Shown here piece by piece: positions 57,823 through 64,000 of a stretch of 64,000 nt of DNA. Each line of letters starts with the position of its first letter. Position 1 is the first letter of the stretch. The notes under the pieces are model-generated. The model was given only the letters and a program-made list of their open reading frames with translations. It did not search any database and was not told the origin of the DNA. This stretch comes from a virus, in IMG/VR virus record IMGVR_UViG_3300020419_001178, positions 32,001 through 96,000 of that record; one strand, written 5' to 3'. The position numbers were made by a program, and so were the translations under genes.

Positions 57823-58833
57823 TTGTTTAAAAAAGCGGCTGTCTTTACTGATATCCACCTTGGATTAAAGTCTAACAGTAAAGTACACTTACAAGATTGC
57901 GAAGAGTTCGTAGATTGGTTTATTGAACAGGCAAAAGCCAACGGTTGTGAAACCGGAATCTTCTGCGGTGACTGGCATCATAATCGAAATACTATCAACG
58001 TACAAACATTAGACACAACAACAAGATGTTTAGAAAAATTAGGTGCGGCATTTGAAAAGTTTTATTTCTTTGCTGGTAACCACGACTTATACTACAAAGA
58101 TAAACGTGATGTGTATAGTGTTGAATTTGGTAAGCATATCCCTGGTATCACTTATGTTGACGATATACTAGTTGAAGATGATGTAGCACTAATTCCTTGG
58201 TTGGTTGGAGAGGAATGGAAAAAGATTTCTAGTATAAAGACAAAGTATATGTTTGGTCATTTTGAACTTCCAAACTTTTACATGAATGCTATGGTACAGA
58301 TGCCTGACACTGGTGAACTTAAAGCTGAACATTTTAAACATCAAGAATATGTTTTTTCAGGACACTTTCATAAAAGACAGATTCAAGGAAGAATACATTA
58401 CTTAGGAAATGCTTTTCCACACAACTACGCAGACGCATGGGACGACAAGCGTGGTATGATGATACTTGACAAAGAAAATAACAAAGAACCACATTACATT
58501 GACTGGGACGATTGTCCAAAATATAGAACAGTTAAACTTTCACAACTGTTGGACGAAAAAGACAAATTATTAAAAAGTAAAATGTACTTAAGAGTAACAC
58601 TTGACTTACCTATTTCATACGAAGAAGCAAGTTTTATTAAAGAAACATTTGTAAACGATTATGACTGTAGAGAAATAACACTTATTCCAAGTCAAAAAGA
58701 TGAAGAAATTCATACAGATATAGATATCAGTACCTTTGAAAGTGTAGATCAAATTGTTACTAAAGAGATTACTGCTATTGATACTGAACAGTACGATAAA
58801 AATACATTGTTAAGGATATATGACGAACTATGA
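57823..58833 (+). CDS. gp47: recombination endonuclease subunit (Mre11/SbcD-like)
   Basis: DIHLG, GDWHH, GNHD, GHFE, SGHFH metallophosphoesterase motifs. Confidence 0.92.
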   Translation: MFKKAAVFTDIHLGLKSNSKVHLQDCEEFVDWFIEQAKANGCETGIFCGDWHHNRNTINVQTLDTTTRCLEKLGAAFEKFYFFAGNHDLYYKDKRDVYSVEFGKHIPGITYVDDILVEDDVALIPWLVGEEWKKISSIKTKYMFGHFELPNFYMNAMVQMPDTGELKAEHFKHQEYVFSGHFHKRQIQGRIHYLGNAFPHNYADAWDDKRGMMILDKENNKEPHYIDWDDCPKYRTVKLSQLLDEKDKLLKSKMYLRVTLDLPISYEEASFIKETFVNDYDCREITLIPSQKDEEIHTDIDISTFESVDQIVTKEITAIDTEQYDKNTLLRIYDEL

Positions 58834-60608
58834 TTAAGATAAAAAGCCTTACAGTAAAAAACTTTATGAGTGTGGGTAATCAAACCCAAGCAGTTGACTT
58901 TGATAAACAACAATTAACACTAGTTCTAGGAGAGAATCTTGATCAGGGTGGTGATGACATGGGATCAAGGAACGGCACTGGTAAGACAACTATTATAAAT
59001 GCCTTAAGCTATGCTCTATACGGACTAGCACTCACTAATATAAGAAGAAACAATCTAATCAATAAGACTAATAATAAAGGAATGTTGGTTACATTAACTT
59101 TTGAGAAAGATGGCACTAGCTATAAAGTAGAAAGAGGACGTGGTCCTAACTTATTGAAGTTTTTTATCAATGACCAAGAACAAGAATTAGTAGATGAAAG
59201 CCAAGGTGACAGTAGAAAAACACAAGAAACAATAAATGAATTGTTAGGCATGAGTCATAATATGTTTAAGCACATACTTGCTTTAAACACATATACAGAG
59301 CCTTTTTTAAGTATGAAGGTAAATGATCAAAAAGATATAATTGAACAACTTCTTGGTATTACTATTCTATCTGAAAAAGCAGAAACACTGAAAGAGAAAA
59401 TAAAACAAACAAGAGATTCGATTACTGAAGAAAACGCAAATATAAATGCTAGACAACAAAGCAATGACAGAATAAAAGAAACCATCGACAGTCTTAAAAT
59501 AAAACAAAGTGCCTGGGAGAGTAATAAAAAGACAAATCTTAAAAAACTTGAAAAAGGTATATCTGAATTAGAACATCTTGATGTAGATAGCGAACTTGAT
59601 AAACATGAAAAATTACAATCGTGGGAAGAATTAAATACAAAAATTACTACATTGAGAAAAGAAACAGCAACTCTTGATTCGACACTCTTAAGGGCAAATA
59701 AGTCTGTAGACAAAGTTAAAAAGGATATAGAAGAACTTGACAATGCTGTTTGTTATGCGTGTGGTCAGGAGCTACAGGAAGATAAAGTCAAAGAGATTGA
59801 AAACAAAAAAGCCAAAGAGCTTGAAGATGCTGAGACATATCAAAAAGAAATAAATGATAAACTAATTGAAGTTAATACAGAGTTGACAAATATCGGAGAT
59901 ATAAACGGTAGGCCGGATACGTTTTATGAAACGATAAAAGAAGTATATGATCACAAACAAAATGTAGCACAATTAAAACAGGCATTAGAAAATAGTAATA
60001 ACGAAACTGATCCTTATCAGGAACAAATAGAAGATCTAACTAAAACTGGAATCCAAGAAGTTGATTGGACTACAATCAACGCACTCAATGATCTAAAAGA
60101 ACATCAAGAGTTCTTACTAAAACTGTTAACAAACAAAGATAGTTTTATACGTAAAAAGATCATAGATCAAAACTTGGCATACTTGAACAACAGGCTCACT
60201 CATTATCTTGATAAGCTAGGACTTCCACATCAGGTTGTATTTCAAAATGACTTGAATGTTGAAATTACACAGCTTGGACAAGATCTTGATTTCGACAATC
60301 TTTCCAGAGGCGAGCGTAATAGATTAATACTTGGTATGAGTTTTGCTTTCAGAGATGTCTGGGAGAGCTTGTATCAAAATATTAACCTACTGTTCATCGA
60401 CGAGCTTGTTGATTCAGGTATGGATACTAGTGGTGTAGAGAATAGTTTAGCAATACTTAAAAAGATGGGTAGAGAACGTCATAAAAACGTTTATCTAATA
60501 TCGCACAAAGACGAACTTGTTGGTAGAGTTACACACGTATTAAAAGTAATTAAGGAAAACGGCTTTACATCATATGAAAATGACGTGGAAATATTTAATG
60601 AAAGATGA
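58830..60608 (+). CDS. gp46: recombination ATPase subunit (Rad50/SbcC-like)
   Basis: NGTGKTT Walker A, CYACGQ zinc hook, LSRGE signature, FIDE Walker B, ISH. Confidence 0.93.
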   Translation: MIKIKSLTVKNFMSVGNQTQAVDFDKQQLTLVLGENLDQGGDDMGSRNGTGKTTIINALSYALYGLALTNIRRNNLINKTNNKGMLVTLTFEKDGTSYKVERGRGPNLLKFFINDQEQELVDESQGDSRKTQETINELLGMSHNMFKHILALNTYTEPFLSMKVNDQKDIIEQLLGITILSEKAETLKEKIKQTRDSITEENANINARQQSNDRIKETIDSLKIKQSAWESNKKTNLKKLEKGISELEHLDVDSELDKHEKLQSWEELNTKITTLRKETATLDSTLLRANKSVDKVKKDIEELDNAVCYACGQELQEDKVKEIENKKAKELEDAETYQKEINDKLIEVNTELTNIGDINGRPDTFYETIKEVYDHKQNVAQLKQALENSNNETDPYQEQIEDLTKTGIQEVDWTTINALNDLKEHQEFLLKLLTNKDSFIRKKIIDQNLAYLNNRLTHYLDKLGLPHQVVFQNDLNVEITQLGQDLDFDNLSRGERNRLILGMSFAFRDVWESLYQNINLLFIDELVDSGMDTSGVENSLAILKKMGRERHKNVYLISHKDELVGRVTHVLKVIKENGFTSYENDVEIFNER

Positions 60609-61009
60609 TATTAGACAAGATTAAAAATCGTGGTGAAGAAATGGCTCCATTAGAAGGGCATGATAGATTACAGTATCTTATTGATATTGCTAGAGAAGTT
60701 CCTCCTTTAGGAGATGAAGATAAAATAGATGAAAATAAAATCAGAGGTTGTGCTAGTAATCTTTGGGTGCTAGGTAAAGTTAATAAAGATGGAACAATGT
60801 CATACAAACATGACGCAGATTCGTGGATAACAAAAGGAACTGCTAAAGTTTTAGTTGATTTGCTAGACGGTGAACATCGTAACGAAATAGCACAATTGAC
60901 TTTACAAAGTTTTGAAGGGTTAGGAATTAGAAATCTTTTAACAATGCAGAGACAAGTTGGTTTTGGCAGTTTAGTAGAACGTATGATAGGAATAGCAAAG
61001 AATGAATGA
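60605..61009 (+). CDS. sufE: SufE-family Fe-S sulfur acceptor
   Basis: DRLQYLID, KIRGCASNLW (catalytic Cys), DADSWITKG, LTMQRQVG. Confidence 0.88.
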   Translation: MILDKIKNRGEEMAPLEGHDRLQYLIDIAREVPPLGDEDKIDENKIRGCASNLWVLGKVNKDGTMSYKHDADSWITKGTAKVLVDLLDGEHRNEIAQLTLQSFEGLGIRNLLTMQRQVGFGSLVERMIGIAKNE

Positions 61010-61202
61010 TGACATACATGACAAGCTAACCAAGGCCTATATGGCGTATTTTAAGGCTAATGAGGCATTTGAAGCAAGAAATTCAGTACGTACCCATAGA
61101 GAAACTAGAAAGTGGCTCCGTGAGATTCGATCTTTAGCAAAACAACGTATGGATGAAGTACATTATAAGCATAATTCCAAGAACGAGACACCAGAAGAAT
61201 AG
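61002..61202 (+). CDS. small hypothetical protein
   Basis: 66-aa helical ORF overlapping the sufE stop. Confidence 0.7.
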   Translation: MNDDIHDKLTKAYMAYFKANEAFEARNSVRTHRETRKWLREIRSLAKQRMDEVHYKHNSKNETPEE

Positions 61203-61220
61203 GCCAGGGTAAGTATCCAT

Positions 61221-61652
61221 ATGCTGTGGACTTATCAAGGTAAAGAAATTACAAAACTGCCAGAAGATATAGAAGGATTTGTATATCTAATTACAAATAA
61301 GACTAACAACAAAAAATATATAGGCAAAAAACTAGCCAAATTTAAGAAAACACGCCCACCACTCAAAGGCAAGAAGAACAAAAGACGAAGCAAAGTTGAA
61401 AGCGATTGGAAAGATTACTGGGGTTCCTCAGATCATCTTATCGCAGACGTACAACAACTAGGTGAAGAAAATTTTACTAGAGAAATATTATATCTATGTC
61501 AAACAAGAGGCTTAATGAGCTATTTAGAGGCTAAGGAACAATTTGACCGCAAAGTTCTGGAAACAGACGAATACTATAATGGTATTATCAATGTGCGGGT
61601 AGGTGGTTCAAAAATTCTTAAAGAACATTTATCAAAACTTAAGGCAATATAA
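61221..61652 (+). CDS. GIY-YIG endonuclease, catalytic domain only
   Basis: GFVYLITN...KKYIGKK, YWGSS, REIL, LE, YYNG; TAAGTA 5 nt upstream of the ATG. Confidence 0.88.
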   Translation: MLWTYQGKEITKLPEDIEGFVYLITNKTNNKKYIGKKLAKFKKTRPPLKGKKNKRRSKVESDWKDYWGSSDHLIADVQQLGEENFTREILYLCQTRGLMSYLEAKEQFDRKVLETDEYYNGIINVRVGGSKILKEHLSKLKAI

Positions 61653-62056
61653 GGACGCTGTTTGATCGGGAAAGCTCGATCCGCTTTGAGGACATGGACA
61701 CCCATGTTCAGAATCTAGCGAGTCCACTAAACTGTTGCTCCAGAAAACTCCACGCAAAGGAACGAAGCGGGAGATAGCGGAGAATCCGCGAAGCGGTTGC
61801 GTTAGCAAAACCGGTTACGCAGATTTTACGTGATGTCGACGTAGGTTGGGAAAGGTCAGAGCCCATGGAGCAAGTCAAATACCTACTTCCGATCTCGGCT
61901 GTGCGAACTCACATGAAGCTTGGGATGATGGGACCTCGTGTAAGGTTCCGTCTGACTGAAACAATCTACATGAAACGTAAGTGCTTCGCACTTAATTCAA
62001 GTAAAATAACAGGTGTTTGAGCGAAAGCGATAACACGAATGATCGTTAGATCATTC
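61653..62056 (+). ncRNA. putative structured non-coding RNA of unknown family
   Basis: No ORF, visibly GC-richer than its flanks; at least eight stems whose G-U pairs all favour the + strand; two long-range pairings. Confidence 0.7.
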
Positions 62057-62106
62057 CAATCCAATGAGTACAATCATCACAGGGATCGTCACAAATGCCA
62101 AGACTG

Positions 62107-62292
62107 TTAATGAAGGTCAGGATCACGGCCAAATCCAGGTTTCACGCTACTAACTTCTACGGGAATGACTTTGAATTCAAAATGTGGTTCTGTATCACGT
62201 TTTGTGTTTATGTAGTAGTTGACTTCTTCCTGTGAATTAAGTTCCTCAATAACGTTACCCGCAGGGTCAACTATCTGATATCTAGTAATCAT
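62107..62292 (-). CDS. small hypothetical protein
   Basis: 61-aa ORF with TAAATA at 62299-62304, 6 nt upstream of the ATG. Confidence 0.7.
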   Translation of the reverse strand: MITRYQIVDPAGNVIEELNSQEEVNYYINTKRDTEPHFEFKVIPVEVSSVKPGFGRDPDLH

Positions 62293-62327
62293 ATAGATTA
62301 TTTAATAAGTAATTATGTCTTCAAATG

Positions 62328-62335
62328 TATAAATA
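62328..62335 (+). promoter_or_regulatory. late promoter TATAAATA
   Basis: Exact consensus upstream of the AGGAG RBS. Confidence 0.75.
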
Positions 62336-62355
62336 TAATGGAATAGGAGTTATTG

Positions 62356-63054
62356 ATGAAGGTTTTAGACGTTTTAACAGAGTCCAAAAAAGTTAATGAA
62401 GGACCATTACGGTTCTTAAAGCGTACATTGGGTAAAAACACAGCTATGGGCAAGTCCGCACAGCTGGATGTAGAAATTGACAAAGAAGTAAAAAACATAT
62501 ACAAGGACTATGTCGCAGTAAGTAAACAAGATCCTAAGAAACAAGGAATGACTGTTGACAGTTTAAGTAGGTTTTTAGCGGCCAAAGGTTTTGTAAATAG
62601 TCCTAAAGAAGTAGTTGCCTTTATCAAACAAGACACAAGCCTAGCTAAAAAATTAGGCAGAGGTGCTGTAGCAGGCGGTAAAAAAACTATTGATGCTACC
62701 AAGAAAGGCGCAACTGCAGTAATAGATGCTGGTAAGAAAATCAAGCAGAAGATGGCTAGCAAGTCTACAGGGCTAACACCTGATCAACCTAATCTTCCAG
62801 GCATTGAATCCATGAGTGAATCAGTGTTGTTGGAACAGTCCATGTCAGGCTCGGAAGTAAAGAAAGTTATCAAACGTTTCGTACAGCAAGGCTTTCAAAA
62901 GCAACTGGGCGGAAGAGTACGTAAGAGTGCCTACGCAACTGACACGGGTGATAACATGATGCCAACTGATGACATCCAAACTGCTCTTGATACTTTGAGA
63001 AACGCTGGCTTTACAATAGACGACGAAAAGAAAAAGATCAAAGCCCCAGCTTAG
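62356..63054 (+). CDS. hypothetical basic late protein (possible internal head protein)
   Basis: Lys-rich; LTE/VNE/LLE motifs resemble prohead-protease cleavage sites; late promoter. Confidence 0.65.
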   Translation: MKVLDVLTESKKVNEGPLRFLKRTLGKNTAMGKSAQLDVEIDKEVKNIYKDYVAVSKQDPKKQGMTVDSLSRFLAAKGFVNSPKEVVAFIKQDTSLAKKLGRGAVAGGKKTIDATKKGATAVIDAGKKIKQKMASKSTGLTPDQPNLPGIESMSESVLLEQSMSGSEVKKVIKRFVQQGFQKQLGGRVRKSAYATDTGDNMMPTDDIQTALDTLRNAGFTIDDEKKKIKAPA

Positions 63055-63281
63055 AAAAAAGGCTGTCCGGATTTTTTAGCAGTTTCTATATTTTCTTTAA
63101 TTAAATCATTTAACAGTTCTATGTCTTCTTTTGATAAGTCATAACTGTCTTCTACAGACAAGGATCCTCTCATCCACCAACACAGTCTATATAGACTGGC
63201 TTTAATTTGCTTTACCTCGCCTTCGAGGACCTTAACCTCGTTTTGGATTTTATCGAGTGACCATGTTAAGATCCGGAGCCG
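63051..63281 (-). CDS. gp51-like extension reached by a -1 frameshift from the gp26-like gene
   Basis: Open frame RLRILTWSLDKIQNEV...WWMRGSLS...KSGQPFF* with no start codon until its middle. Confidence 0.7.
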   Translation of the reverse strand, partial: RLRILTWSLDKIQNEVKVLEGEVKQIKASLYRLCWWMRGSLSVEDSYDLSKEDIELLNDLIKENIETAKKSGQPFF

Positions 63282-63287
63282 AAAAAA
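63227..63287 (-). other. -1 programmed ribosomal frameshift signal
   Basis: Slippery T TTT TTC (63287-63281), 6-nt spacer, 10-bp stem GGAUCUUAAC/GUUAAGGUCC. Confidence 0.75.
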
Positions 63288-64000
63288 TTGCTCTGATCAA
63301 ATGTAATCGGAACTTCGAAAGTTTCTGGAGCACCTGCTTTTATTTCATCTTCATCTGCCTGTATTGTTACAGGTTTAATATCAAAATTTGTTTTTTGTGC
63401 TTTGATACGATCAGATATTTGATTGAAAACAACTGCTTCACAGTTTTCCAAGAAGTCTTTCAAGTATGCTGGATTTGTTACAGCTTCGGTTTCACCATCG
63501 GGTTGTATAGATACAACGCTGTCAATTAAAACATTGATATTGATCTCAGTCAATTTTGTAAATGCTTTTTGGAATCTTGCTAACTTTACTCCTTGATCTA
63601 TATCATCGTTGTCTATTATCGAAAACACTCTCTGTTCTTCAAATGCTTTTACAGCTTGTTCAGTCTGTGTCTTGTAACTGATAGGTTTAATACCTACTGT
63701 GAAACCATCTATCTTATGTGAAGTTTCAAAATGTGCTGATTGAAGATGATCGTATATAGTTTGTAAACTATAAGCAAAATCTCTTACAATCTTTGTATTC
63801 GGAACAGTTGCTGAAATTTCAATAGTCTCGCCATATGTTGCCATTCTGATAGCAACTAGTAAAGTATCAAGATCAATTGAAGGACATTGCCAAGCATTTT
63901 TTATGTTTGGGACACAACTTTGTATTACATCAACTGTAGCTTGTCCATTCAATAACGCATCAGGTGTCTTGAACGTAATTTCATCCCTGGCTGTCATCGC
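63266..64000 (-). CDS. gp26: baseplate hub assembly protein, gp26-like (5'-truncated by window edge)
   Basis: MTARDEI..KTPDALLNG...DLDTLLVAIRMATYGE. Confidence 0.75.
   Translation of the reverse strand, partial: AMTARDEITFKTPDALLNGQATVDVIQSCVPNIKNAWQCPSIDLDTLLVAIRMATYGETIEISATVPNTKIVRDFAYSLQTIYDHLQSAHFETSHKIDGFTVGIKPISYKTQTEQAVKAFEEQRVFSIIDNDDIDQGVKLARFQKAFTKLTEININVLIDSVVSIQPDGETEAVTNPAYLKDFLENCEAVVFNQISDRIKAQKTNFDIKPVTIQADEDEIKAGAPETFEVPITFDQSNFFGSGS

What the first reader, a model, noticed from the sequence alone, without database searches (positions are those of the whole stretch)
61653..62056. ~400-nt non-coding element with nested stems and two putative pseudoknots
Seen on the + strand: GGAC-GCUG/UAGC-GUCC (61653-61725) encloses hairpins 61664-61681 and 61690-61709. 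A domain closed by GAGAU..CGGA/UCCG-AUCUC (61771-61896) contains a long hairpin (~61783-61825) and GUAGGU/ACCUAC (61841-61886). Long-range UUGCUCCA (61735-61742) pairs with UGGAGCAA (61866-61873), and loop GGUCAGA (61854-61860) pairs with UCUGACU (61951-61957). Further hairpins lie at 61927-61952, 61978-61994, 62013-62036 (GAAA loop) and 62037-62056 (GUUA loop). The mismatches in the main hairpins are G-U on this strand, and ACAUGAA occurs twice. It is the only large gap in a gene-dense window. Inference: a folded functional RNA, possibly a ribozyme, that I cannot assign to a known family.
Basis: partly seen in the sequence, partly recalled or inferred. Interest (0 to 1): 0.85.

Follow-up and report, generated by a model that had tools for sequence, protein, structure and literature searches.

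The report
Twin-box pseudoknotted RNA of marine phages
The 400-base gene-free stretch encodes a real, intricately knotted non-coding RNA shared by hundreds of uncultured marine T4-like phages; it carries one 7-letter word twice, the two copies always change together, and its job is still unknown.

Summary
Window 61653-62058 (+) is the largest ORF-free gap in the window. It is G+C-rich (45-51% against 30-38% in the flanks) and folds better than shuffles (z -4.75).

Homologues occur in well over 100 IMG/VR contigs. On 92 of them my model is 90.5% paired (34-41% when slid), and 34 of 65 pairs change on both sides. One pseudoknot (61735-42 with 61866-73) covaries strongly. The second (61854-60 with 61951-57) is invariant apart from two compatible one-sided changes.

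No Rfam family matches the window. In a divergent relative the 5' third is the orphan motif Polynucleobacter-1 (RF01718).

The word ACAUGAA occurs twice (61911-17, 61968-74). It changed at least 21 times across 134 loci, yet the two copies are identical in 131. I found no complementary partner.

The RNA usually follows a catalytic-only GIY-YIG gene, but each occurs without the other, so it is probably not the nuclease's guide.

My best reading, which is inference, is a trans-acting scaffold that shows two identical recognition words to one partner. The function is unknown. This scan found the same family earlier on other DNA.

The parts
61221..61652 (+). Upstream neighbour: a 143-aa GIY-YIG-only protein (SegE type). 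It is usual company for the RNA, not an obligate partner.
   Evidence: Pfam PF19835 at E 2.9e-36. It lies directly upstream of the RNA in nearly all loci found by an RNA motif alone. Homologues without the RNA: Melnitz, S-SRM01, phiM12, C48C1 and BUCT-ZZ01.
61653..62058 (+). The whole twin-box RNA, about 405 nt. The ends are inferred from conservation, not mapped.
   Evidence: nhmmer and blastn homologues start at the stop codon of the GIY-YIG gene and end after the last hairpin. On A3, 90.5% of cells are paired against 34-41% when slid.
61653..61725 (+). 5' three-way junction. P1 is 61653-56 with 61722-25. UGUUU (61659-63) is a conserved single strand. P2 is the hairpin 61664-81. P3 is 61682-85 with 61717-20. 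P3a is the hairpin 61690-709.
   Evidence: Compensatory variants: P1 GGAC/GUCC, GAAC/GUUC, GCAAC/GUUGC. P2 GAUCGAG/CUCGAUC, AAUCAAG/CUUGAUU, GGUCGGA/UUCGACU. P3 CGCU/AGCG, CACC/GGUG, CGUA/UACG, CACG/CGUG, CUCCA/UGGAG.
61735..61742 (+). Pseudoknot A, 5' strand (UUGCUCCA).
   Evidence: Pairs with 61866-73. Matched duplexes average -11.1 kcal/mol against -6.8 for mismatched partners. Four of the five core pairs show 3 pair types each.
61748..61773 (+). P5 hairpin CUCC...GGAG, with the near-invariant loop AAAGGAACGAA.
   Evidence: Paired in 98 of 98 sequences at all four outer positions, with 3-4 pair types at three of them.
61777..61831 (+). P6, a long hairpin of variable length. In some relatives it is reduced to a GNRA mini-hairpin.
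   Evidence: Length varies from about 10 to about 90 nt. The base pairs covary: GU/GC/AU/UA and CG/UA/AU.
61841..61886 (+). P8 is GUAGGU (61841-46) with ACCUAC (61881-86). It encloses the P9 hairpin 61847-65 and the 3' strand of pseudoknot A (61866-73).
   Evidence: P8 is invariant in 92 sequences apart from one G-C to G-U change. The closing pair of P9 covaries, U-A to G-C.
61854..61860 (+). Pseudoknot B, 5' strand (GGUCAGA), in the P9 loop.
   Evidence: Pairs with 61951-57 and is 100% pairable. The only changes are G-U to G-C (12 sequences) and C-G to U-G (5 sequences), both compatible. There are no two-sided changes.
61892..61926 (+). Candidate P10: AUCUCGG (61892-98) with CUUGGGAU (61919-26). 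Its loop would carry box 1.
   Evidence: Compensatory C-G to U-A to A-U at one position. Two other pairings of 61892-99 remain possible.
61911..61917 (+). Twin box 1 (ACAUGAA).
   Evidence: Identical to box 2 in 131 of 134 loci despite at least 21 changes on the tree. No complementary partner was found.
61930..61949 (+). P11 hairpin GGGACC...GGUUCC. The 3' strand is invariant.
   Evidence: 100% paired, with A-U to G-U changes on the 5' strand only. A covarying hairpin occupies the same place in other classes.
61951..61957 (+). Pseudoknot B, 3' strand (UCUGACU).
   Evidence: See the 5' strand.
61968..61974 (+). Twin box 2 (ACAUGAA).
61979..61993 (+). P12 hairpin.
   Evidence: All five pairs change on both sides; 97.7% paired.
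62013..62036 (+). P13: GUGUU/AACAC with an inner GC-GAAA-GC and flanking GA/GA. This is the most conserved module across classes.
   Evidence: Covariation: GC/UA/AU, AU/UA, and inner CG to UA. The motif alone retrieved 119 or more IMG/VR stretches.
62039..62054 (+). P14, the 3'-terminal hairpin, facing the end of a convergent 61-aa gene.
   Evidence: All six pairs change on both sides. No U-run follows, so it is not a textbook intrinsic terminator.

Best explanation
**What is shown.** Window 61653-62058 (+) is a gene for a structured non-coding RNA of about 405 nt. It belongs to an uncatalogued family that earlier runs of this scan called the 'twin-box RNA'. The family is carried by uncultured aquatic T4-like, probably jumbo, phages. 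The gene sits at the end of the gp47-gp46-(small ORFs)-GIY-YIG transcription unit.

The fold consists of:
- a 5' three-way junction;
- a central domain tied by two long-range pseudoknots;
- a tail with two identical 7-nt words, each apparently unpaired;
- three hairpins.

**What is inferred.** The conserved knotted core is a rigid scaffold that could be catalytic. The two words are recognition sites for one trans-acting partner. That partner could be two copies of a complementary nucleic-acid sequence or a two-fold symmetric binder. The word sets a lineage-specific specificity, so whenever it changes, both copies must change.

The RNA works independently of the neighbouring GIY-YIG nuclease. 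The nuclease is a habitual neighbour rather than a subunit. What the RNA does for the phage is not known.
For: **Real RNA.**
- 92-sequence alignment: 90.5% of cells paired against 34-41% when slid. Covariation score 0.308 against 0.04-0.07 slid and 0.129 shuffled, with 0 of 500 shuffles as high. 34 of 65 pairs change on both sides.
- Pseudoknot A: matched against mismatched partner energies of -11.1 against -6.8 kcal/mol.
- P5 is paired in 98 of 98 sequences.
- One-base indels inside invariant blocks.
- G-U pairs are specific to the + strand.

**Twin words.**
- Identical in their first 6 nt in 139 of 141 loci.
- At least 21 changes in each box on the tree of the neighbouring gene, yet identical in 131 of 134 loci.
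- 17 word variants seen.
- The best mutual-information partner of each box column is the same column of the other box.
- No complement inside the RNA or at a fixed nearby place.

**Independence from the nuclease.**
- GIY-YIG homologues at up to 76% identity have only 28-148 nt of non-coding sequence after the annotated gene in four of the five records; the fifth, BUCT-ZZ01, has no annotated GIY-YIG gene.
- All five whole genomes give no significant match to the twin-box model (best E 0.05, 19.5 bits, against 78 bits in the window's own genome).
- Locus L154 has the RNA behind a terminator-like hairpin and an A+T-rich spacer, with no GIY-YIG gene in 8.6 kb.
- Words differ between loci whose nucleases are 92-96% identical.
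Against: - No partner for the words was found. The word and its complement are not enriched in the 145.7-kb record: 16 against 19 expected, and 16 against 13 expected.
- The record has no tRNA or tmRNA genes.
- Transcription, RNA ends and strand are inferred only.
- No own promoter and no canonical terminator are seen in the window, so the RNA could be just a 3' UTR here.
- That the boxes are unpaired rests on the absence of a detected partner, not on probing.
- Near-constant adjacency to the nuclease gene could still reflect a functional link that is dispensable in other lineages.
Confidence: 0.5

Rival explanations
1. The RNA is the cofactor or guide of the adjacent catalytic-only GIY-YIG nuclease. 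This would be an RNA-protein nuclease, analogous to OMEGA/IscB with its HEARO RNA. The two words would position two nuclease monomers on a target.
For: - The nuclease has only the catalytic domain plus a basic insert and no DNA-binding domain.
- The RNA starts at or within about 170 nt of its stop codon in most loci that were found by an RNA motif alone.
- The words are short, variable and exposed, as a guide would be.
Against: - Close homologues of the nuclease (76% identity in Melnitz, and others) have no such RNA anywhere in their genomes.
- L154 has the RNA without the nuclease.
- In about a dozen loci, 200-400 nt separate gene and RNA.
- A guide identical to its own gene would target the phage's own DNA.
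- 7 nt is too short for specificity, and the complement is not enriched or placed anywhere telling.
Confidence: 0.1
2. The RNA is a decoy or inhibitor aimed at a host factor, such as a sequence-specific defence endoribonuclease or an RNA-binding protein. The two identical words would mimic that factor's recognition site. Phage pseudo-ToxI RNAs inhibit ToxN in this way. The fast change of the word would then be an arms race.
For: - The words change fast and always together.
- The RNA is confined to phages. A scan of 185,579 species genomes found only 3 MAG contigs, which are probably phage contigs.
- RNA mimicry of a type III antitoxin by phages is established knowledge (Blower et al. 2012, recalled from memory, not checked here).
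Against: - No tandem array of full repeats and no toxin gene nearby. Pfam found none on 8 neighbouring ORFs.
- A 400-nt invariant knotted core is far more than a decoy needs.
- Hosts are unknown, so no target can be named.
Confidence: 0.15
3. The RNA is a self-processing or trans-acting ribozyme. The knotted core would be the catalytic centre and the twin words the sites of cleavage or ligation, for example releasing or circularising the 57-nt piece between them.
For: - Size, pseudoknots and blocks of invariant unpaired nucleotides (GGAACGAAG, GUCGACGUAGGU, GGGAAAGGUCAGAGCCC, GGUUCCGUCUGAC) resemble large ribozymes.
- Two identical sites flank one unit.
Against: - No internal guide complementary to the words.
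- No Rfam ribozyme match even at E up to 10.
- The piece between the boxes is tied to the core by P10 and pseudoknot B, so it would not be released freely.
Confidence: 0.12
4. The stretch is a cis-acting element of the operon, or a DNA-level signal. Options are a 3' UTR that stabilises or terminates the gp47-gp46-GIY message, or an origin or R-loop primer, as two earlier agents guessed.
For: - It lies at the end of a transcription unit, facing a convergent gene, with no promoter of its own detected in the window.
- T4 origins oriF and oriG use persistent transcripts (established knowledge).
Against: - Compensatory changes including G-U pairs show selection on an RNA fold far beyond what a terminator or an R-loop needs.
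- No GC-skew turn at the site.
- In L154 it stands as its own unit behind a terminator.
- Neither reading explains the twin words.
Confidence: 0.08

Closest known systems
Polynucleobacter-1 RNA motif (Rfam RF01718; Weinberg et al. 2010, PMC2864571)
   Same: In a divergent member of the same superfamily, L111:2942-3088, the first third of the RNA matches RF01718 at 64.1 bits against a gathering score of 37. The tail of that RNA is homologous to the window's tail: twin boxes, P12 and P13, with nhmmer E 1.5e-15. The first hairpin of the longer 5' domain seen in many class-1 relatives, GGCGG...CCGCU, resembles the first hairpin of the motif by eye.
   Different: The window itself has no RF01718 match, even at E up to 10. 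It carries a different, shorter 5' three-way junction. RF01718 covers 141 nt only, is listed as a possible cis-regulatory element of Burkholderiales and fresh water, and lacks the knotted core and the twin boxes.
GOLLD and ROOL large ornate RNAs (Rfam RF01998, RF03087)
   Same: Both are large, elaborately folded, pseudoknotted orphan RNAs often carried by phages, with no protein partner known. That description of GOLLD and ROOL is established knowledge and was not tested here.
   Different: No sequence or structure match to either. This RNA is smaller, is not next to tRNA genes (none in the record), and has the twin-word feature.
HEARO/omega RNA of IscB and TnpB (OMEGA systems)
   Same: A structured RNA of 200-400 nt encoded next to a small nuclease gene.
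   Different: Here the RNA and the nuclease each occur without the other. The nuclease is GIY-YIG rather than RuvC/HNH. There is no transposon end, and the variable words are internal and duplicated rather than forming one terminal guide.
T4 free-standing seg homing endonucleases next to stable-RNA genes (SegB in the tRNA cluster)
   Same: A GIY-YIG seg-type gene sits beside a conserved RNA gene in a T4-like genome. That placement in T4 is established knowledge.
   Different: The nuclease here lacks the DNA-binding half, is 70-88% conserved across hundreds of contigs, and is present in almost every RNA locus. It therefore does not behave like a sporadic selfish insert.

Membership tests
Rfam RF01718 Polynucleobacter-1 | Covariance-model score at or above the gathering score of 37 bits. 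| tested here: not met
   No match in window 60400-62600 at E up to 10, nor at gathering score over the whole window. It is met by the relative L111:2942-3088 at 64.1 bits. It is not met by six other class-1 relatives searched whole.
Twin-box RNA (provisional family of this scan, uncatalogued) | Two copies of one 7-nt word, 50-65 nt apart, flanking a covarying hairpin. | tested here: met
   ACAUGAA at 61911-17 and 61968-74. Model R1, built from 44 sequences of all classes, scores the window's copy at 78.1 bits, E 5e-14, as the only match in the 145.7-kb record.
Twin-box RNA (provisional family of this scan, uncatalogued) | A 3' module UUGAGCG-NN-AGCGAAAAC hairpin followed by a terminal hairpin. 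| tested here: met
   62013-62036 and 62039-62054. Both covary and are shared with class 2.
tmRNA (one-piece or permuted) | tRNA-like domain with T-arm and acceptor stem, plus a conserved tag reading frame. | tested here: not met
   ARAGORN finds none in the window or the whole record. No Rfam tmRNA family matches at E up to 10. Indels after the GCA are not in threes, so no tag frame is conserved. The two-piece tmRNA of phage Melnitz lies elsewhere in its genome.
Group I intron | P3-P9 core recognised by the Rfam model, with flanking exons of an interrupted gene. | tested here: not met
   No Intron_gpI match at E up to 10. The element is followed by a convergent gene, not a 3' exon. The order of helices does not fit P3/P7/P8 (my reading).
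Guide RNA of an RNA-guided nuclease (OMEGA-like) | Obligate co-occurrence of RNA and nuclease. | tested here: not met
   The nuclease occurs without the RNA in five isolate genomes. The RNA occurs without the nuclease in L154.
Guide RNA of an RNA-guided nuclease (OMEGA-like) | RNA-dependent, guide-complementary cleavage. | not testable with these tools
   This needs biochemistry.
Type III toxin-antitoxin RNA (ToxI-like) | Tandem array of full-length repeats of about 36 nt next to a ToxN/AbiQ-type endoribonuclease gene. | tested here: not met
   Only two 7-nt words lie inside imperfect 23-26-nt repeats. Pfam finds no such toxin on eight neighbouring ORFs.

The most novel reading that the evidence does not exclude
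The twin-box RNA would be a new class of programmable phage RNA. Its two identical, freely evolvable heptamers would base-pair with two copies of a target sequence in host or rival-phage nucleic acid. The invariant knotted core would either act on that target as a ribozyme or recruit a protein to it, possibly the neighbouring GIY-YIG nuclease in the lineages that keep the pair together. That would make it a compact RNA-guided system unrelated to CRISPR or OMEGA.
Probability: 0.12. Interest if true: 0.95.

Novelty: new variant of a known kind. Interest (0 to 1): 0.78.

Why it matters
Large RNAs with several pseudoknots and blocks of invariant unpaired nucleotides have nearly always turned out to be ribozymes, ribonucleoprotein scaffolds or multimeric RNA machines. 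This one is abundant in uncultured ocean and freshwater jumbo T4-like phages. It is absent from Rfam in its full form and has no paper in the held library beyond a one-line 2010 table entry for a fragment.

The rule that two separated copies of a 7-nt word mutate in step is a clean, experimentally addressable signature of recognition by one partner. It held through at least 21 changes. I know of no parallel in catalogued bacterial or phage RNAs. Finding that partner would reveal a new phage strategy and possibly a small programmable RNA module.

Tried and rejected
**Database and literature searches that found nothing**
- Rfam at gathering score and at E up to 10. Only chance hits appeared: DdR8 snoRNA at 20 bits on the wrong strand, and a lncRNA fragment.
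- ARAGORN on the window and on the whole record.
- blastn at distant sensitivity of three classes of the RNA against 50,697 phage records: no match. No cultured phage in that collection matches at blastn sensitivity.
- Literature searches for an RNA-guided GIY-YIG system, for phage structured-RNA surveys and for Polynucleobacter-1: nothing beyond the 2010 table.

**Readings rejected**
- Coding. The 51-codon frame 61865-62020 is broken by one-base indels in relatives.
- tmRNA. I checked the Melnitz paper; its tmRNA is at a different locus.

**Searches for a partner of the twin words: none found**
- Perfect 6-nt complements inside the RNA.
- Same-sense or complementary copies within about 3 kb, across word variants.
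- Mutual information against all alignment columns.
- Genome-wide enrichment.
- Self-pairing of the two boxes, rejected by eye because words such as AGAUGA and ACAUAA are not palindromic.
- A 'start codon', 'stop codon' or 'codon plus A' reading of the word, rejected by the variants ACAGGAA and UCAUCAA.

**Other leads dropped**
- The 233-aa downstream protein as a dedicated partner. It has no homologue in cultured phages, but it is absent near L154 and from a third of loci.
- A sigma-70 promoter or intrinsic terminator bounding the RNA: none convincing.
- GC-skew turn: none.

Full report
**Setting**

The window is part of a 145.7-kb IMG/VR virus record, estimated to be 41% complete. Around the finding lie these genes:

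| Coordinates | Strand | Gene |
|---|---|---|
| 57823-58833 | + | gp47-like phosphoesterase |
| 58830-60608 | + | gp46-like ATPase |
| 60605-61009 | + | SufE |
| 61002-61202 | + | 66-aa ORF |
| 61221-61652 | + | 143-aa GIY-YIG-only protein (Pfam PF19835, E 2.9e-36) |
| 62107-62292 | - | convergent 61-aa ORF |
| 62353-63054 | + | 233-aa ORF |
| from 63266 | - | T4-type baseplate gene |

The closest gp46 relatives are jumbo Pseudomonas phages of the PA5oct type, at 50% identity. The closest GIY-YIG relative in a cultured phage is in the OM43 myophage Melnitz, at 76%.

- 61653-62106 is the largest stretch of the window not covered by any ORF of 60 aa or more: 454 nt, against 202 nt for the next.
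- Its G+C content is 45-51% in a 30-38% background.
- The + strand folds to -147.9 kcal/mol, z -4.75, and none of 100 shuffles does as well. The - strand gives z -3.54.

blastn and nhmmer then found homologues of the element in about 90 distinct sequences of the window's own class.

The alignments show the classic signature of a structured RNA. Long invariant unpaired blocks alternate with hairpins of variable length and compensating sequence. One-base indels sit inside invariant blocks and exclude coding.

**The fold**

Numbering is in window coordinates.

*5' three-way junction*
- P1: 61653-56 with 61722-25.
- Conserved single strand UGUUU.
- P2: hairpin 61664-81.
- P3: 61682-85 with 61717-20.
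- P3a: hairpin 61690-709.
- Each helix has several compensatory variants, including in a second class of the RNA.

*Central domain*
- Pseudoknot A: 61735-42 with 61866-73.
- P5: 61748-73, with the near-invariant loop AAAGGAACGAA.
- P6: 61777-831, of variable length.
- P8: 61841-46 with 61881-86.
- P9: 61847-65.
- Pseudoknot B: 61854-60 with 61951-57.

*Tail*
- Candidate P10 around box 1.
- P11: 61930-49.
- P12: 61979-93.
- P13: 62013-36.
- P14: 62039-54.

*Support on 92 sequences*

| Measure | Model | Partners slid by 1-3 columns | Column shuffles |
|---|---|---|---|
| Cells paired | 90.5% | 34-41% | not compared here |
| Covariation score | 0.308 | 0.04-0.07 | 0.129 (0 of 500 as high) |

34 of 65 pairs change on both sides.

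- Pseudoknot A is independently supported. Each sequence's own two strands pair at -11.1 kcal/mol on average, against -6.8 for strands taken from different subtypes.
- P5 is paired in 98 of 98 sequences, with 3-4 pair types at three of its four outer positions.
- P8 and pseudoknot B are almost invariant. They are always pairable, and the few changes are compatible (G-U to G-C, C-G to U-G), but there is no two-sided covariation.
- Abundant G-U pairs would be C-A on the other strand, which fixes the RNA on the + strand.

- GCUG/UAGC is replaced by P3.
- CGGA/UCCG is 56% paired.
- GAGAU/AUCUC has its first G covarying within P5 instead.
- Segment 61892-99 has three competing partners that I could not separate.

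**What family?**

No Rfam family matches the window, either at gathering score or at E up to 10. ARAGORN finds no tRNA or tmRNA.

Earlier agents of this scan, working on other genomes, reported that the first third of related RNAs is the orphan motif Polynucleobacter-1. I tested this.
- L111, a divergent relative whose tail is homologous to the window's, matches RF01718 at 64.1 bits over positions 1-141.
- The window and six other class-1 relatives do not match.
- The window carries a different, shorter 5' junction. That junction is shared with a second class (A2) whose central domain is different again.

The superfamily is therefore modular. The 5' domain comes in at least three forms and the central domain in at least two, while the tail stays constant. 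The only literature on any part of it in the held library is one line of a 2010 table: 'Burkholderiales, fresh water/estuary', possibly cis-regulatory.

The RNA is confined to phage-like DNA.
- A scan of one genome from each of 185,579 species found the core motif on only three MAG contigs of 73-335 kb. These look like phage contigs binned by mistake.
- blastn against 50,697 phage records found nothing.

**The twin boxes**

ACAUGAA occurs at 61911-17 and 61968-74.
- Across all classes the two copies are identical in their first six letters in 139 of 141 loci.
- I saw 17 different words, including very different ones such as UCAUCAA and ACAGGAA. Only position 6, an A, is constant.
- On a tree of the adjoining GIY-YIG gene (134 loci), the word changes at least 21 times in each box, yet the copies are identical in 131 loci.
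- Words differ between loci whose nucleases are 92-96% identical.
- In the alignment, the best mutual-information partner of each variable box column is the same column of the other box. MI is 0.46 and 0.81, against at most 0.39 and 0.51 for any other column.

I found no complementary partner in four places:
- inside the RNA;
- at any fixed place within about 3 kb;
- as an enrichment in the 145.7-kb record, with 16 occurrences against 19 expected for the word and 16 against 13 for its complement;
- among tRNA genes, since the record has none.

The boxes lie inside longer imperfect direct repeats, GGCUGUGACGAACUC-box and GUCUGACUGAAACAAUCU-box, with a matching pattern in class 2. The module therefore looks like an old internal duplication.

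Same-direction co-variation is what one expects if both copies are read by one partner. Because the word can be almost anything, base pairing with a nucleic acid seems more likely to me than protein recognition. That is inference.

**Relation to the nuclease**

In loci found by RNA motif alone, a GIY-YIG ORF lies upstream on the same strand wherever the contig extends far enough, with one exception. Synteny is conserved: gp47-gp46-small ORFs-GIY-RNA-small minus-strand ORFs-233-aa ORF-baseplate. The two are nevertheless separable.
- Melnitz, S-SRM01, phiM12 and C48C1 have the nuclease homologue in other contexts, with only 28-148 nt of non-coding sequence after the annotated gene. In BUCT-ZZ01 the homologue is a tblastn match with no annotated gene.
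- A covariance model of the twin-box module (R1) finds nothing significant anywhere in those five genomes. The best hit is E 0.05 at 19.5 bits. The same model scores the window's copy at 78 bits, as the only hit in its record.
- L154 has a divergent but clear copy of the RNA, with twin word UCAUCAA. It lies behind a terminator-like hairpin and about 330 nt of A+T-rich spacer, with no GIY-YIG gene in 8.6 kb.
- In about a dozen loci, 200-400 nt separate the gene and the RNA.

I therefore rate the guide or cofactor reading at about 0.1. This agrees with the earlier agents' conclusion, which I re-derived on my own data.

**Mechanism**

*Shown:* a conserved, knotted RNA fold on the + strand, and two identical words under joint constraint.

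*Inferred:* the RNA acts in trans as a scaffold that presents the two words to one partner. The core may be catalytic or may bind protein.

*Rivals:*
- nuclease cofactor;
- decoy for a host defence RNase or binding protein, which would explain the fast word turnover;
- self-processing ribozyme;
- cis element or origin primer.

None is excluded. The origin or R-loop idea of two earlier agents explains neither the covariation nor the twin words, and there is no skew turn at the site.

**What I could not do**

I ran no R-scape statistics and no structure probing. The RNA ends are taken from conservation only.

Noticed in passing
L154:6700-7200 (IMGVR_UViG_3300025671_010108): A divergent copy of the RNA with a very different twin word (UCAUCAA, within GCGA(A)UCAUCAAGU twice). 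It stands behind a terminator-like hairpin and an A+T-rich spacer, with no GIY-YIG gene in the 8.6-kb locus. It appears to be an independent transcription unit.
   Followed up: partly
window 61930-61949 and 61759-61763: The 3' strand of P11 (GGUUCC) is invariant in 92 of 92 sequences, while its 5' partner varies. GUUCC is also complementary to the invariant GGAAC in the P5 loop. This could be an alternative pairing or a switch.
   Followed up: no
window 61897-61918 and 61950-61975: The two boxes sit inside longer imperfect direct repeats (GGCUGUGCGAACUC-box and GUCUGACUGAAACAAUCU-box). The same pattern appears in class 2 (AUGGUACGCUGAUCUU-box and AUGGCUCAACUAUCU-box), suggesting an ancient internal duplication.
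   Followed up: partly
window 62353-63054 (+): A 233-aa lysine-rich protein with no Pfam family and no tblastn match in 50,697 phage records. It is present downstream of the RNA in 79 of 120 loci and is specific to this lineage, like the RNA.
   Followed up: partly
window 60605-61009 (+): A phage-encoded SufE (Pfam PF02657, E 1.4e-28) overlapping the end of the gp46-like gene, inside the recombination-nuclease operon.
   Followed up: no
L238, L239, L240 (JBDNIA010000124.1, PBPT01000016.1, PBPT01000082.1): The only 'bacterial' genomes carrying the RNA core motif are MAG contigs of 73, 335 and 153 kb, labelled Crocinitomicaceae and Neomarinimicrobiota. They are probably jumbo-phage contigs binned into MAGs by mistake.
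   Followed up: no
window 62107-62292 (-): The 61-aa convergent ORF has a C-terminus (GFGRDPDLH) conserved at protein level in many relatives, so it is a real small gene that ends about 50 nt from the RNA's last hairpin.
   Followed up: no
window 63051-63296 (-): First-stage notes propose a programmed -1 frameshift (T TTT TTC) in the gp26-like baseplate gene. I did not examine this.
   Followed up: no
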